64,000 nucleotides of DNA, taken from contig NW_027590154.1 of the NCBI RefSeq assembly GCF_964213995.1, positions 806,001 to 870,000 on the forward strand, given 5' to 3'. This DNA is from Mustelus asterias. Taxonomy: Eukaryota. The notes under the pieces are model-generated. The model was not told where the DNA came from. It ran no database searches and was given only the letters and a program-made list of their open reading frames with translations. Within the stretch, counting starts at the first letter, position 1; every line of letters starts with the position of its first letter. This document shows, piece by piece, positions 16,786-46,547 of the stretch. The position numbers were made by a program, and so were the translations under genes.

Positions 16786-17094
16786 GTAAAATCCAAGGGA
16801 ATTCGGTTCCACAGTGTCAACTTAAGTTAAAGGTATCTGAGGGAGCTAATGTGCAATTGAACTTCAGTTCTGTTGATCCGGATCGCTACTGGAACCAGCC
16901 ACTCCAGTTTATATTGTATCGGGATAACACCAAGAACGCCGAGTTTTCCGAAGGAAAATTCGATGCTCGACATTTCCGTCAATATCAGGTTTTCACTTTG
17001 TCAATTTTTACAGTGGGGACTAAAGACAGCGCCCTCTATTTCTGTGGATTGAGTATCATGATGCTTCAAACCGGCTGCGACCCGAACAAAAACC
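16786..17094 (+). pseudogene. TCR alpha/delta V pseudogene (frame open, but first Cys lost, internal deletions, heptamer degenerate)
   Basis: tgcag|GKIQGNSVPQ...VQLNF(not C)...YWNQPLQFILY...DSALYFCGLS; perfect nonamer acaaaaacc at 17086-17094 but heptamer catgatg; no leader found. Confidence 0.8.
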
Positions 17095-18215: not shown

Positions 18216-18841
18216 ATGCTGCTCCCCAGTTATCGCATTGCTACTTTATATGAGTAAACGATTTCCCGAGACACTTCCTCTCCTTCTGTTTTAGCTTTCT
18301 GTACAACAGTCGCTTAATTTAAAAGATTACAATAGTAAATTCATCCATATCTCCAACATGCGATTCAAGGAGATCACTGGCCAAGAAATAATGGGGCACT
18401 TCTGTTTTTGTCATTTGGTTATAGTGTGGCTGATGTTCGGTATGTAAAACCATAACTTCTTATCTGCTGGCAGCATTGTGATGCTAATGGTCCCGCCGCT
18501 CAGTATTGCGTTAAAACTTTCCTTGTGTTCTATTCAGGGCTGATTCAAGCAGACTCTGTGTCGCAACCTCAGACTGAACTGTATATTACTGAAGGAGATA
18601 GAGTGAAAATGGACTGCAGCTACACGACAAGTTACAGCGATCCCGACCTTTACTGGTACAGACAGCACAGGGACCAGGCTCCGCATTTTATTTTGTACCT
18701 AGATAGAAGCAGCAGAAGAGACGCAGATTTTGCCAAGGGAAAATTCAAGGCCGGTCAGACGAATGCAGAAAATAATTTTCCTTTAACGCTTACTCGAGCA
18801 GAAATCCAAGATACCGCTGTCTATTTCTGCGCGTTGAGAGA
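18216..18841 (+). CDS. TCR alpha/delta V segment. V exon 18538-18841 is intact; leader 18216-18253 carries a +1 frameshift (possible pseudogene)
   Basis: V exon LIQADSVSQPQ...MDCSY...YWYRQ...DTAVYFCALR; the leader reads MLLPVIALLLYM only if one C of the CCCC run is removed. Confidence 0.85.
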
Positions 18842-18880
18842 CACAGAGGTTTAAAACTCATCTATCGCTGTACATAAACC
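18842..18880 (+). promoter_or_regulatory. 23-RSS
   Basis: cacagag + 23 bp + acataaacc. Confidence 0.9.
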
Positions 18881-21232: not shown

Positions 21233-21579
21233 TGTTTTTGTACTGAGTTGGTACTGTTTTCTATTACTGTGAGTCCCAGGGCGCAGTAATAAACGGCGGC
21301 GTTAGTCGGCTGCAGGTCCACGATGGTTAACTTTGTGGTGGAGTCTGACAGCTGGAGTCTGAAGCAAAACGGTTCCCTAACGCCGAGCCTTTCCATTCCA
21401 TAACATCTCAAGGCCTCTCCACACAACAAACTGGGGCTCTTTCGCTGTTTGCTGTTGGTACCAAAATACATAATACCTTACTTCTGTAGTGCTAGAGGTA
21501 CACTTTATAGTCTCGGCTTCACTTTCTTTGACGCCCACTGATGCCCGGGACTGAGTAATGTAATCTCCATAACTCTGAT
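21233..21579 (-). pseudogene. TCR alpha/delta V pseudogene (frameshifted) with a 23-RSS
   Basis: ttgcag|DQSYGDYITQ...IKCTSS...FWYQQ in one frame and ...LTIVDLQPTNAAVYYCALG in another; RSS cacagta + 23 bp + acaaaaaca (21233-21271); a CR1 insertion sits just upstream of the acceptor. Confidence 0.88.
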
Positions 21580-21594
21580 CTGCAACGTGTTCAG

Positions 21595-22981: not shown

Positions 22982-23289
22982 AATGATCAGCGCACAATAA
23001 TACACCCCACTGTCACTCAGCTGTACATCTGTCAGGGCTAAACTGAAGAAACGATCCAATACTCGGAGTTTTGACCAGAATCGGCCTCCCACACGCTCAG
23101 CTTTCTCTGCTTCTCCCTCCGAATTCCTTTTGATTAAAAATACCGGCTCCTCCCTCGGTTTTTGTCGGTACCAGAGAAGATCATAGCGGCGGCTGTCTGT
23201 GGAGAATGAACAGGGCAACACCATGCGTTCTTGCTCCAAACATGATACTGACGGTGCAGTTTGCTTTACAGTATCAGAATAACACAGTC
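22982..23289 (-). CDS. TCR alpha/delta V exon (open frame); leader exon not identified
   Basis: ttgaag|GLCYSDTVKQTAPSVSCLEQERMVLPCSF...LWYRQ...DSGVYYCALI; extra Cys in FR1. Confidence 0.88.
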
Positions 23290-23710: not shown

Positions 23711-25316
23711 GGTTGACATACTTCATGCGAAGCCTGATTATTTTTGGAAAAATCTTTTGTTTTTGCATTTGCACATTATAAATAGAGGCAAGAATTCTAT
23801 CTGATTTTTAAAGTGCAATTTGAACCAACACCTTCAGCGTTTTCCTTACAAACATCGAAAGTTCTTTCCCTCCAATTACCTAATTTTTAACTGCAGCAAA
23901 CTATTGTAAATTTCACTCCAATCAAAGTGAATGGTCATTCAAAACTCGCATCCGTCCGTCCGGTTTCTAACCGTCATGAAAACTTGCCCTAATTTCTCTC
24001 AGTTGTCGGTTGGTTCAGTCTGTTCAGTTTCCGCAGTGGTTTTACTGTTACTCACTGGGAACTGCCTTCAGGGTATGTGAGAATTTCAATCCTTTTAGTC
24101 CATTGGCTGATTGTTCCCTGTTCTTTCTGAACACAATAGTCTCTGAGTGAACATTCTACACTTTCCACTTAACACGAATGGGCCACTCGGTTCAGCTGGT
24201 CGAAGATTGTCCTCGTCCGCCCCTTCACCTCTCGAACCGGAAATAACCATTTCCATCCTGAGCTGTGTGTCTTTTTATTCCTCACTCCCAAGCTGTTCCA
24301 TAAATTCATCACGCCGTTTCTCCAAAGAGCGAGTTTCACATTCTGATGTGTCTCCGTGTAAATATACCCGAATGTTTCTATCTCTCCTGATAGACATTTC
24401 ATATTCCATATATAAATATCTACTTCTTCTGGGGAACCTGGTTCGAATCCTGCCTCGGCAGTTGGTGGAATTTGACTTCAATTTTAAAAATCTGAAGTTA
24501 AGTATCTGCTGCTGACCGTGAAACCATTTCCGATGTTCAGAAAAAGCCACAGCAATGTGATTGACTCTCAACTGCCCTTAAAAATGGCCCAGCCAGCCAT
24601 TGATTTGAAGGGCGACCAGGGATGCACAATAAATGATGGCCAACCAGCGACGCCATGTCACACGAATGATTTAAAGAAAGAAACAGCTCTCCCACCGAAG
24701 GACCAGTTTCTGCACATGGAACTCCTTGAAACTACAATATAATGTTCGGTGTTTCAATGCCGTTTTTCATGCCTTACGGGCCTTCGAGAGCGAAAGTCAA
24801 AGCTTTTGCAAACTTTCGATATCCATACACATGATTGATTATTTATATTCTCTGGAGTGTAAGAAATTCATGCTGATAATAAGATACATGAGAAATAGAA
24901 ACATGGTAGACCAATCCACCTTGGGGACCCGCTGTACAATTCAGGAATGTTCAGATCTGATCATCTACCTTAATGCTAACTGTGCGTCCTATTTCCAAAT
25001 CCATTGATTCCATTAGTACTCAAAAATAAAATCCATGGAACGGTTCAGCACCCTCAGCCTCGACACAGCCCAATTCTTGAGATTCAGTATGCTTCAGTGA
25101 GCACAATCGCATGTTTTTGAAATCGACAAAAAACATAATGCAAACAGATTTTTCCACCATCAGCGATCAATATGTGGAAGAGAATTCAATTCTAACGTTT
25201 TGGAATTCTGCCAAAATAATTGTTTATAGGAAGGAAATAAAAATCCGACAGGATATAATTATTTTTAGTCACTGATTGCGCATGAAATGTCGCCGACAAC
25301 TATAAAATTAGCTCTT

Positions 25317-29283: not shown

Positions 29284-29335
29284 CGGTTGTGATAGTCACC
29301 ACCATCCCAGACCCATCTGCAATCTCCATTCTCCC
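29284..29335 (-). CDS. J segment of the NAR-TCR-type cassette
   Basis: GRMEIADGSGMVVTITT + G|gtaagt phase-1 donor; GxG..V-T motif; preceded by a 23-RSS. Confidence 0.8.
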
Positions 29336-29374
29336 CACAGTGTCAGCGCTCTCAGTCAGCCCAGCACAAGAATG
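29336..29374 (+). promoter_or_regulatory. 23-RSS of the J segment
   Basis: cacagtg + 23 bp + acaagaatg. Confidence 0.8.
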
Positions 29375-29708
29375 TCTGACACCTCAAACTGCCGAGCAGC
29401 CATTACCGAGCAATCAGTGTTTCTCGATTATTCAGGGGATTTGAATCAATAATGAACATTGGATGTTTAAAAAAAACCTCATTGGACCAAACTTTTCCTT
29501 GTGACTCTCTGAGTTCCTGGTAAAATTTCCCAGGAACAGGAGCAGAGATGCAAGATTCTTATTAATGGCGAAAAACCTGGAAGAATTATAACTGATAGGT
29601 GGAAATTAAAATGAAATTAAACTAGATTGAACTGGGAATAACATCAACCCGACAAGTCAAGTTACCGAACATGGGAATTGCTGGGAATTACTGTTTTGAT
29701 TGTCCTGA

Positions 29709-29736
29709 GGGTTTTGTCGATCTCTCTCCCAGTGCG
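29709..29736 (-). promoter_or_regulatory. 12-RSS of the NAR-type V (heptamer mutated)
   Basis: cgcactg + ggagagagatcg (12 bp) + acaaaaccc. Confidence 0.6.
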
Positions 29737-30220
29737 GTGTCCTATGTGAGTAGTACCAGTGCTGAACTTTACAGTAATCGGTGGCACTGTCTTCAACTCT
29801 CACATCCCGAATTTCCAGTGAAAATGTCTTTTCTGCTTTATTCACCAATACAATAAATCTCCCTCCGCTGGAGATCCGCTCCTGCTCCGTCCCGGTCTGG
29901 ATTTGTCTGAAAAAATGACCATTTTCTAAATCATGAACTTCACAGAAAACACAGGTGATGGTAAGAGACTGACACTCCTTCCTGGTCAACGCTGCCAGGC
30001 TCTGTGCCACTGGCAGATTGAAAGATCCTGGAAATTAAACACAGAGAGTTTAATGGACCATCAGAGCCGAACCAAACAAAGGGGCTAAAATCCGAGACAG
30101 TGTCCGTAATTGAGATGGACACGAGGCAGCTTTATATTCAATCCACGCAATGTGGGTTAGTTTGATCGGTACTCATCAGGGTAAACAGGCACACAGGGTG
30201 AAAACAAGAAGGATTCCCAT
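29737..30220 (-). pseudogene. IgNAR-like V segment (NAR-TCR V), probably inactivated. Leader 30179-30220, V exon 29737-30027
   Basis: SFNLPVAQSLAALTRKECQSLTITCVFC...FFRQIQTGTEQERISSGGRFIVLVNKAEKTFSLEIRDVRVEDSATDYCK. VNAR-like short CDR2 region and an extra FR1 Cys. Leader MGILLVFTLCACLP is followed by TGA with no GT donor (gatgagt), and YYC reads DYC. Confidence 0.8.
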
Positions 30221-30544
30221 CGTTCTGCTGTCTGGAGCTGACGGTTTATATGCCAGGGAGCTGAGGCTACAGAGCTGGACTGCTCTGGGAGACTGGCTCT
30301 CAGAGCTGCACTGAAGTCTTTCAGACCCGAACATCGGTGAATTCAGCCACGCCCACAGTTTAAAATGAAACTCCAGTATTTAAATGGGGAACTGAGCTGT
30401 GAATTTTCAGTCGAAACTCCCGGCAGCGAGAATCCAGAATTTCAGCAGGTGATCGACAGTTGTGGGTGGCGTGCTCGACTTGGTTTCGAATAGATTATTT
30501 ATTGTTATTGATTCAATGGATGTGGGCTTCGCTGGCGATGCCAG

Positions 30545-41658: not shown

Positions 41659-41697
41659 ATTTTTTGTACGGGTCTCTACTGACCTGGTAACGCTGTG
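41659..41697 (-). promoter_or_regulatory. 23-RSS
   Basis: cacagcg + 23 bp + acaaaaaat. Confidence 0.88.
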
Positions 41698-42050
41698 TGT
41701 CCCAGTACACAGTAATACACCGCACTGTCAGAGAACTGCGCATAGTGAATGGTTAAAGGAACAGTTCTTGCTGTGTTATCTAAAGTAGCATAAAGCAGCC
41801 GCTTCCCAAAGGCAGTCACAATTTTTCCAGAGCTCGTTTTTTCCAATAGATATTGAGGGTGTTTCTCTGGGTGCTGAATATACCAGAAGAAAGCAGGAGA
41901 AGTATGTGATGTCGAATAATTGCAGTTTAGCTTCACAATGTCTCCATAACTCACTCTGATACTCGGTGGATCCTGAAACACTGCCTCCATTTCCTCACTG
42001 GCCTGAATAAGAAGGATGAATACCGATGTCAAACAGAGAAAATGCTGCAT
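41698..42050 (-). CDS. TCR alpha/delta V segment, open frame, with an in-frame hydrophobic N-terminus
   Basis: MQHFLCLTSVFILLIQASEEMEAVFQDPP...LNCNY...FWYIQ...DSAVYYCVLG. Confidence 0.88.
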
Positions 42051-44244: not shown

Positions 44245-44895
44245 ATGCGATTCTTCACAGCTCTCATTTATTGGCGGGGAATATCCATCAGTTCCGGCAG
44301 AGTAGCCAATCCTGTCTCTGGGAAATGCCCCTCAGTTTCTCAAAAAATAAACCCAGACTATAACAGGGGCTACCCTTTACACTAGATTGGAATCACCGGC
44401 AGAATTAGAGCATTTTGTTACTTTGTATCGAGACGTATACACGGAAACCATCTGTTCGCCATGCTCCTTACTGATTATAATGATCTTGCTGCCCGACGGG
44501 TCCATTATTAAATGGTAACCATGTCATCCAGTGGTTATTTTTAAACCCTGACTTTTGAGCTAATCTGTATTTGTGTGACAGGAATGAGTGGCAAAACTTC
44601 AGTGTTCCAGGCTCATTTCGAATTGACAATTCGGGAAGGACAGTGTGGACTGGACTGCCGTTACTTGATAATCTACACTACCCCAACTCTCCTCTGGTAC
44701 ATGCAGTCTTCCAGGGAAGCTCCGAGATATTTGCTGAAGAAATATAGCTTAGGGGGTGAAGAAAGGTCCCCAAACCGAGGTTCTCTGCAGATTTGCTGAA
44801 GGGAAACAAAACAGTTCCTTTATATCTTCTGTCGGATACTGCTGTGTATTTCCGTGCCACACATAGATACATAGAGCGGATCCAGTACGAAACTC
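44245..44895 (+). pseudogene. TCR alpha/delta V pseudogene (probable leader 44245-44290, V exon from 44582)
   Basis: MRFFTALIYWRGISI; gacag|GMSGKTSVFQ...LDCRY...LLWYMQ...APRYLL; frameshift, then RFSADL...TVPL...SDTAVYFR (Cys to Arg); degenerate RSS; related to the V at 41.7-42.0 kb. Confidence 0.82.
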
Positions 44896-46049: not shown

Positions 46050-46088
46050 AGTTTTTGTACAGGAGTCAGGCTGCTTTCCATCACTGTG
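46050..46088 (-). promoter_or_regulatory. 23-RSS
   Basis: cacagtg + 23 bp + acaaaaact. Confidence 0.95.
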
Positions 46089-46547
46089 AGGCTGAAAGCG
46101 CAGTAATACACGGCCGCGTCAGACAACTGCAGACCCGAGATAGTCAAACTGATGGATTTCTTCGGGATTTGGAAGTCAGTCGAGAAACGGATTTTAGCAA
46201 AATCTGCTTTATATTCATTACCCCGCGAGGGCCTTCTCAGTATGTACTCGGGCTGGGAGTCTGGATGCTGTCGGTACCAGTATAAATTATAGATGGTTTC
46301 TGCAGTATCATAGTTGCAGTTTAATGTCACCACGTCTCCTTCTGGCTTAACATCTGAGGACAGCGGCTGAGTGACAGAATCTCCATGGCTCAGACCTGGA
46401 AAATATGTTCAAATAGATAAAGAAAAGAGTGATGTGTAATCAACAGTAAGATTCCACCCAAGTTTTGGAAATGAGAAAACTAACGTGATGCCCAGAAATA
46501 CCTGTTAGAAATGCCCCCCACACAATCCAAATGACGAGCATCTTCAT
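46089..46547 (-). CDS. TCR alpha/delta V gene segment, apparently functional. Leader 46502-46547, V exon 46089-46395
   Basis: MKMLVIWIVWGAFLT|GLSHGDSVTQPLSSDVKPEGDVVTLNCNY...YWYRQHPD...DAAVYYCAFS; canonical phase-1 intron; same family as 6320-6782. Confidence 0.93.

What the first reader, a model, noticed from the sequence alone, without database searches (positions are those of the whole stretch)
29284..30220. NAR-TCR-type cassette (IgNAR-like V plus its own J) embedded among TCR alpha/delta V genes
Seen: a leader plus V exon unlike the neighbouring TCR Vs. It has a short VNAR-style FR2/CDR2 (FFRQIQTGTEQERISSGGRF), an IgNAR-like FR3 (VNKAEKTFSLEIRDVRVEDS) and an extra FR1 Cys (RKEC). About 400 bp downstream is a J (ADGSGMVVTIT) with a 23-RSS and a phase-1 donor. 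Established: sharks make NAR-TCR, a TCR delta chain with two V domains, in which a rearranged IgNAR-like V is spliced onto a leaderless supporting V-delta; an FR1 Cys is proposed to pair with a CDR1 Cys of that partner. Inference: this is one such cassette, probably dead (leader ends in TGA with no GT donor, YYC reads DYC, heptamer is CGC).
Basis: partly seen in the sequence, partly recalled or inferred. Interest (0 to 1): 0.8.

Follow-up and report, generated by a model that had tools for sequence, protein, structure and literature searches.

The report
Dead pre-joined shark NAR-TCR cassette
This is a broken, partnerless copy of a known shark T-cell-receptor module that stacks an antibody-like domain on an ordinary one; its first two gene pieces are already fused in the inherited DNA, as in intact sister copies, likely because the immune recombinase once cut and joined them in a germ cell.

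Summary
Confirmed, with corrections. The minus strand holds a leader, an IgNAR-related V (30027-29749) and its own J with 23-RSS and phase-1 donor. The V groups with the N-terminal domains of rearranged two-V TCR chains, sister to IgNAR V and apart from TCR V. It is a NAR-TCR pseudogene: leader stop plus lost donor, CGC heptamer. (1) The 12-RSS behind the V is a D segment's 3' signal: the DNA from it to J is homologous to the D-to-J spacer of split cassettes (z 12-25), not to their V-to-D spacer. V and D are fused in the germline; 40 of 69 NAR-TCR V places in this assembly share the junction, 16 look intact, and a second animal carries it. (2) A 6.6-kb deletion removed this copy's supporting V-delta. 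Germline VD-J joins are known for shark Ig genes; six searches found none reported for NAR-TCR, but four primary papers were not held. No RNA evidence. This scan had already noted the VD-joined family on other DNA of this genome and in other genomes.

The parts
30245..30250 (-). TATA-like hexamer upstream of the leader
   Evidence: sequence; similar element in paralogues; function inferred
30178..30220 (-). Leader exon, broken: 43 nt, last base T where intact paralogues have C (or A), giving TGA read through or spliced; donor reads GATGAGT where intact copies read GTGAGT
   Evidence: the same lesion in 15 of 15 readable members of this dead sub-lineage
30028..30177 (-). Leader intron, acceptor AG at 30029-30028
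   Evidence: conserved in paralogues
29749..30027 (-). NAR-TCR V exon: open frame, a-b loop Cys, no FR2 Trp, short CDR2 region, DYC for YYC
   Evidence: DYC in only 3 copies (window, C110, C166)
29737..29748 (-). 12-nt junction: remnant of a D segment plus up to 4 extra bases, fused to the V end
   Evidence: intact sisters read CACA+TGGGACAC; a free D in a split cassette ends TGGGACAGT
29709..29736 (-). 12-RSS (heptamer CGCACTG, nonamer ACAAAACCC): the D segment's 3' signal, damaged at the CAC
   Evidence: intact sisters have CACAGTG or CACAATG
29375..29708 (-). D-to-J spacer
   Evidence: about 72% identical to the D3'-J spacer of split cassettes, z 14-25 for this copy; z -0.2 to 1.1 against their V-D spacer
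29336..29374 (-). J 23-RSS (nonamer 3 mismatches from consensus, as in intact sisters)
29284..29335 (-). NAR-TCR J segment (DGSG motif), phase-1 donor at 29283-29282; one base shorter than in intact sisters upstream of the motif
23958..23961 (.). Deletion junction: about 6.6 kb missing relative to G000:C786 (114340 to 120907); the lost DNA held both supporting V-delta exons, an intact VD-joined cassette and the leader of the next V
   Evidence: same structure on C110 and C166, 99.5% identical over 10 kb; not at an RSS
22982..23289 (-). Ordinary TCR alpha/delta V, open frame, left leaderless by the deletion; not a supporting V (no CDR1 Cys; outside that group in the tree)

Best explanation
This is a dead copy of a shark NAR-TCR cassette whose V and D segments are fused in the inherited DNA, likely by RAG acting in an ancestral germ cell, and whose supporting V-delta has been deleted. 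Shown: leader-V-J anatomy, NAR-TCR grouping, the lesions, the D origin of the 12-RSS and spacer, the junction shared by 40 of 69 places and by a second animal, the deletion. Inferred: intact sisters would need one RAG join (12-RSS to the J 23-RSS) instead of two to finish the IgNAR-like domain, would splice J in phase 1 onto the leaderless supporting V-delta, which rearranges to D/J-delta, and would so make three-domain delta chains whose NAR CDR3 has a fixed first half (AQHWYY.HGT-like). This copy likely makes nothing: no usable leader, no CAC heptamer, no partner.
For: VNAR-only top PDB hits. Tree: 20 NAR-TCR-like rows one group 98/92, with IgNAR 100/99 against TCR V. Unnamed database chains P0046, P0054 and P0066 are rearranged two-V chains with the same C start as single-V TCR chains. 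Split paralogues have V-22RSS, 12-D-12, 23-J. Spacer homology: 16 of 16 comparisons to D3'-J spacers z 12-25, 16 of 16 to V-D spacers z -1.3 to 1.1. The V end in the joined family is the same 25 nt as in split L027/L049. Spacer tree: 27 distinct joined-type spacers form one group, 100/100. A contig of a second sample spans 29515-29817 with 4 differences and no gap. An independent single-copy V-D join (L054) keeps the same TGGGACA part of D. Two intact joined lineages show dN/dS 0.23-0.29; dead copies against their nearest intact lineage 0.83-1.23. Supporting V with CDR1 Cys downstream on the same strand in 17 of 20 ten-kb loci.
Against: No unjoined parent of this sub-family was found: all 40 spacer matches lie at joined-type places (lower bound) and the joined spacers are sister to, not nested in, the split ones. 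The 12 nt can also be read as CAC plus ATGGG of the V's own RSS joined to D through TGGG, which needs no RAG. No named nurse shark NAR-TCR sequence came from any call; P0046 and P0054 carry no name and their C is called delta from recalled knowledge. dN/dS values rest on 85 codons, were not tested for significance, and V exons may be homogenised by conversion. None of the 74 proteins held is a somatically rearranged chain with the joined-type junction.
Confidence: 0.78

Rival explanations
1. Same dead NAR-TCR cassette, but V and D were fused by ordinary germline deletion: a deletion through the TGGG shared by the V-RSS spacer and the D, plus loss of 4 bases from the V heptamer; selection kept it because it still obeys the 12/23 rule.
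For: Split copies read CAC-CGTG-ATGGG after the V end, joined copies CAC-ATGGG; the 4 extra bases are not P nucleotides of the V end; another, non-RSS deletion hit this same copy.
Against: Needs two events; both ends fall at RAG cut positions (V coding end intact, second end inside a 13-19 nt D); L054 shows the same product with an untrimmed V end and one extra base; RAG-type signal and hybrid joints occur in this gene family in the assembly.
Confidence: 0.15
2. The D-less form is not derived from a V-D-J cassette: it is an old V-J cassette with a 12-RSS on V, like a light-chain or primordial V-J gene, and D was added in other lineages.
For: Joined-type spacers form a sister group to all split-type spacers; no unjoined parent in this assembly.
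Against: The V end equals that of split copies and is followed by D-like bases; the joined-type V exons are scattered inside the NAR-TCR V group, not basal; IgNAR V genes, the sister group, have a V 22/23-RSS and D segments (L070).
Confidence: 0.03
3. The junction is somatic: DNA from a rearranging T cell that was assembled into the genome.
For: The assembly holds four single-copy RAG-type joins in this family (L025 D-J, L054 V-D, L041 inversion, L063 hybrid plus signal joint), one of them on the window's own contig.
Against: One junction in 40 places whose spacers differ by up to 0.39 substitutions per site; present in a second sample and, by contig ends, in two other coded species; read through in an unnamed protein of another V subfamily (P0003).
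Confidence: 0.01
4. The V is a stray IgNAR V or a non-rearranging IgSF V (NKp30-like), not NAR-TCR.
For: Best solved-structure matches are VNAR.
Against: True IgNAR V of the same genome are 34-44% identical and form a separate group; closest relatives are first domains of two-V TCR chains; RSS and J are present; sisters have supporting V-delta.
Confidence: 0.01

Closest known systems
NAR-TCR, the doubly rearranging TCR-delta of cartilaginous fish (Criscitiello 2006, not held; features from passages of PMC1845163, PMC12227049, PMC5931798)
   Same: IgNAR-related V with a-b loop Cys and no WYRK Trp; own J; intact sisters are followed by a leaderless V-delta with CDR1 Cys; lies among TCR alpha/delta V genes
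   Different: V and D are fused, so one join instead of two; this copy has lost its leader function, its RSS heptamer and its supporting V
Partially germline-joined (VD-J) shark IgH clusters and germline-joined IgL (passages of PMC2193156, PMC5192425, PMC8355894)
   Same: Segments fused in inherited DNA beside split relatives; RAG in germ cells is the accepted cause
   Different: [quoted passage not shown]
Marsupial TCR-mu germline-joined supporting V (passages of PMC3457774, PMC7615758)
   Same: Three-domain TCR chain with a germline-joined V
   Different: There the invariant, fully joined V is the supporting domain and is thought to be retroposed; here the outer, presumed antigen-binding domain is half-joined and keeps its leader intron
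IgNAR V (VNAR; PDB 2ywy, 7s83 and others)
   Same: Shortened FR2/CDR2 and FR3 sequence
   Different: Separate group in the tree; IgNAR V of this genome keeps FR2 Trp, lacks the a-b loop Cys and has a multi-D cluster (L070)

Membership tests
NAR-TCR cassette | N-terminal V related to IgNAR V, not to TCR V | tested here: met
NAR-TCR cassette | Cys in the a-b loop of the V (PMC1845163 passage) | tested here: met
   RKEC, codon 29974-29972
NAR-TCR cassette | No Trp in the WYRK motif (PMC1845163 passage) | tested here: met
   HFFRQ
NAR-TCR cassette | Working leader peptide on the NAR V | tested here: not met
   Stop and lost donor in this copy; intact in sisters. Hence filed as a pseudogene of the family, not a working member
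NAR-TCR cassette | Own V, D and J that rearrange separately from the supporting V | tested here: not met
   J and a 12/23 pair are present, but D is fused to V and the heptamer is CGC; 20 split V-D-J or V-RSS paralogues exist
NAR-TCR cassette | Downstream leaderless V-delta with CDR1 Cys | tested here: not met
   Deleted in this copy. In sisters: 17 of 20 loci; leader-like hit upstream of 2 of 28 supporting V matches against 3 of 3 intact NAR V and 4 of 7 window V
NAR-TCR cassette | Position in the TCR alpha/delta locus, upstream of D/J/C-delta | tested here: inconclusive
   Neighbours are TCR-type V with 23-RSS; no TCR J matched in the window; C-delta was not located; the contig is 1.13 Mb
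NAR-TCR cassette | Expressed as a two-V delta chain; inter-domain disulfide | not testable with these tools
   No RNA holder listed; no complex prediction run
Germline-joined antigen receptor gene (VD-J type) | Junction inherited: same joint in several copies and animals | tested here: met
   40 of 69 places; second sample
Germline-joined antigen receptor gene (VD-J type) | V RSS, V-D spacer and D 5' RSS absent; D 3' RSS and D-J spacer kept | tested here: met
Germline-joined antigen receptor gene (VD-J type) | Joint bears RAG hallmarks against an unjoined parent (trimming, N or P bases) | tested here: inconclusive
   V end intact, D trimmed, up to 4 extra bases, but no direct parent found and an RSS-remnant reading fits too
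IgNAR cluster | IgNAR-group V, several D, own C exons | tested here: not met
   Outside the IgNAR group; no free D; C exons were not searched for specifically
Non-rearranging IgSF V (NKp30-like) | Complete V exon without RSS or separate J | tested here: not met
   RSS pair and separate J

The most novel reading that the evidence does not exclude
RAG cuts the shark TCR-delta locus in germ cells, not only Ig clusters: one old V-D join was amplified to more than half of this shark's NAR-TCR cassettes and is kept under selection as a half-fixed, innate-like antigen-binding domain, and the four single-copy joins in the assembly are further, recent germline events.
Probability: 0.3. Interest if true: 0.7.

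Novelty: new variant of a known kind. Interest (0 to 1): 0.42.

Why it matters
The copy itself is a fossil of a known receptor. The family it belongs to extends germline V(D)J joining from shark Ig clusters to the antigen-facing domain of a T-cell receptor. Sixteen intact-looking places (some probably alleles) predict NAR-TCR chains with one junction and a fixed half CDR3, which a single C-delta 5' RACE experiment can test; the ligands of NAR-TCR are unknown (PMC7615758 passage), and a semi-invariant subset is a handle on that question.

Tried and rejected
Next V at 23289-22982 as the supporting V: rejected (no CDR1 Cys, outside the group, leader lost by deletion). First tree held that V in a wrong frame; redone. 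A 23/24-spacer reading of the RSS after the V (CACATAG): rejected, sisters keep the 12-spaced heptamer and vary in those bases. Sequencing runs: no RNA holder listed among 20 runs for an intact sister cassette; no evidence either way. Laying reads on the single-copy join L054 gave no result, so germline versus somatic origin of the four single-copy joins is open. Metagenome scan: 3 hits of 24 residues, taken as chance. Cluster look-up gave no name for P0046 or P0054. Pfam says only V-set, below cut-off for the window V. Papers not held: Criscitiello 2006, Criscitiello 2010, Ott 2021, Deiss 2019. No structure or complex prediction was run: the fold is known and the copy is dead.

Full report
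Observation. The minus strand of 30220-29284 holds a 43-nt leader, a 150-nt intron, a V exon open from 30027 to 29749, 12 further bases, a 12-RSS (29736-29709), a 334-nt spacer, a 23-RSS (29374-29336) and a J (29335-29284) with a phase-1 GT donor. The two facing signals occur together in 0 of 1000 shuffles of the stretch. The window also holds ordinary TCR alpha/delta-type V exons on both strands and no match to a TCR J pattern.

What the V is. The 30 best of 58 PDB matches are VNAR domains; the first TCR chain comes at E 1.3e-3. A protein search of the own genome gave 81 matches, which are 72 places once 9 split matches are merged: 69 of this family and 3 IgNAR V at 34-44% identity. A search with a split paralogue found 59 longer proteins from sharks and rays, mostly gene models of this V plus J plus a second V; one, labelled Mustelus asterias, is 100% identical over the V, so the organism is likely a smooth-hound shark. 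Two unnamed proteins (P0046, P0054) are rearranged leader-V-J-V-J-C chains, and they share their C start with single-V TCR chains; that this C is delta is recalled knowledge, not a tool result. In a 38-row tree the window V lies in one group with the first V of those chains (20 rows, 98/92), sister to 3 IgNAR V, and separated from 9 supporting and 6 ordinary TCR V (100/99; 11 of the 74 proteins held and 8 paralogues were used; no VH or NKp30 rows). It has the two sequence marks given for NAR-TCR V in PMC1845163 (passages): an a-b loop Cys and no WYRK Trp.

The missing D. Split paralogues read V, 22-RSS, about 400 nt, 12-RSS, D of 13-19 nt, 12-RSS, about 370 nt, 23-RSS, J. In the window copy the V end is followed by 12 nt and a 12-RSS. 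The DNA from that RSS to J aligns with the D3'-J spacers of four split cassettes (about 72% of aligned bases, z 12-25 in 16 of 16 comparisons using four joined-type copies) and not with their V-D spacers (z -1.3 to 1.1 in 16 of 16). So the V signal, the V-D spacer and the D 5' signal are gone and the D 3' signal remains. Intact sisters read a complete 25-nt V end, then CACA, then TGGGACAC; one free D ends TGGGACAGT. The script labelled 35 of 69 places joined, 22 split and 12 unclear; by reading, 5 of the 12 are joined, 1 is a separate recent V-D join, 1 a hybrid joint and 5 are decayed, giving 40 of 69. Of the 40, 16 have ATG, GT donor, open V, CAC heptamer, J signal and donor (12 by script, 4 by reading leaders); 16 belong to the window's dead sub-lineage; 8 are otherwise broken. 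Many places are near-identical pairs on different contigs and may be alleles, so these are not copy numbers. The 27 distinct joined-type spacers form one group (100/100), sister to the 13 split-type spacers: one old event, whose unjoined parent was not found.

Germline, not somatic. The joined copies differ by up to 0.39 substitutions per site in the spacer. A contig from a second sample of the same coded species spans 29515-29817 with 4 differences and no gap (4 of 20 listed runs laid; run X1 may be the assembly's own source and is not counted). In two other coded species, contigs stop fitting at 29722 and go on with the spacer of the intact sisters; for one, a 254-nt piece runs from the V to that point, 27 letters past the V end, just under the tool's 31-letter rule for bridging, so this is strong but not formal support. 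An unnamed ENA protein with a different CDR1 reads through the same junction (P0003).

RAG or deletion. A RAG coding join explains both ends in one step, and the accepted cause of joined shark Ig genes is RAG in germ cells (PMC2193156 abstract and passages; PMC5192425 passages). L054, a single-copy V-D join 99.5% identical to split L052/L053, keeps the same part of D. But split copies read CAC-CGTG-ATGGG after the V end and joined copies CAC-ATGGG, so a two-step deletion through TGGG cannot be excluded without the parent.

Why this copy is dead. The leader ends in T instead of C or A and its donor reads GATGAGT, giving TGA with or without splicing; 15 of 15 readable members of the sub-lineage share this (1 was cut by the locus end). 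The heptamer lacks CAC in all 16. DYC is private to three near-identical copies. dN/dS is 0.83-1.23 between dead copies and their nearest intact lineage and 0.23-0.29 between the two intact lineages (85 codons, no significance test; dead against the farther intact lineage 0.32-0.39). In 17 of 20 ten-kb loci a V with CDR1 Cys follows on the same strand 3-6 kb downstream; it is inverted in 1 and absent in 2, one of them the window's twin. A leader-like exon was found upstream of 2 of 28 such V matches, against 3 of 3 intact NAR V and 4 of 7 other V in the window. Elsewhere the dead cassette faces an intact joined cassette, with two supporting V between them. The window lacks about 6.6 kb of that unit (C786 114340-120907), with the junction at 23958-23961 in a simple repeat and not at an RSS; this removed both supporting V, the intact cassette and the leader of the V at 23289-22982. 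Two other contigs share the deletion.

How the intact sisters would work (inferred). One 12/23 deletion joins VD to J; J splices in phase 1 to the leaderless supporting V, as in P0046 and P0054; that V rearranges to D/J-delta. The NAR CDR3 would have a fixed first half and one variable junction. The outer V is thought to bind antigen unpaired (PMC3457774 passages). No RNA evidence was obtained.

Literature. Searches for NAR-TCR/shark/supporting, NARTCR/shark (13), germline-joined/shark/TCR (35), NAR-TCR/cassette (48), pre-joined/T cell receptor/cartilaginous (60) and NAR-TCR/D segment (61) were seen as listings; passages were read in PMC12227049, PMC6795676, PMC1845163, PMC2193156, PMC3457774, PMC5192425, PMC8355894, PMC7615758 and PMC5931798; no supplements were opened. 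None of these passages describes a germline-joined NAR-TCR; germline joining is given for shark Ig and for the supporting V of marsupial TCR-mu. The four primary NAR-TCR papers were not held, so absence from print is not established. Earlier notes of this scan describe the same VD-joined family and the facing pair on other pieces of this genome and similar cases in other genomes; my reading was written down before I looked and those notes are not independent support.

Verdict. A real NAR-TCR pseudogene, new variant of a known kind through its germline V-D fusion. Interest 0.42: the copy is a fossil, the family makes a testable prediction of half-fixed NAR-TCR chains.

Noticed in passing
L041:1166-6929 (G000:C122, about 393-399 kb; same contig as the window): A 5.8-kb inversion relative to L034 with a perfect heptamer-to-heptamer signal joint at one end and the NAR D joined to the 3' end of the supporting V at the other: a RAG inversion, single copy, germline or somatic unknown.
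   Followed up: partly
L054 (G000:C110:84772): Single-copy V-D join of the L052/L053 subfamily, flanks 99.4-99.8% identical to the split copies; independent of the old join.
   Followed up: partly
L025/L036 (G000:C173:94363): Single-copy D-J join with trimmed ends; V still has its 22-RSS.
   Followed up: partly
L063 (G000:C110:114505): V coding end joined to the inverted J signal (hybrid joint), D inverted, and the V signal joined to a foreign 12-RSS: at least two RAG events.
   Followed up: partly
L034:6926-7137; L044 between the facing supporting V: Tandem 61-bp repeats of the 23-RSS behind supporting V exons; also noted by earlier scan findings.
   Followed up: no
window 22982-23289 (-): Ordinary V with open frame, a Cys in FR1 and a 23-RSS that lost its leader in the deletion and now sits 6 kb behind the NAR J donor: an accidental leaderless V in the supporting position.
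   Followed up: yes
window 6478-6790 (+), 18540-18842 (+), 46088-46393 (-), 41697-41999 (-): Open TCR alpha/delta-type V exons with 23-RSS on both strands; leaders found for three, none within 1.2 kb for the 41.7-42.0 kb exon.
   Followed up: partly
window 16788-17060 (+), 21272-21585 (-), 44599-44870 (+): Decayed V exons: lost Cys and FR2, frameshift with a repeat upstream, and a frameshifted relic.
   Followed up: no
L070-L072 (G000:C71:0.7-2.9 Mb): Three IgNAR V exons on the same 20-Mb contig as NAR-TCR cassettes at 7-16 Mb, in line with the linkage reported in PMC12227049.
   Followed up: partly
L047, L060, L061: Split-type NAR V with Tyr in place of the a-b loop Cys, no D or J found within about 1.2 kb and an ordinary V downstream: a second orphan lineage.
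   Followed up: no
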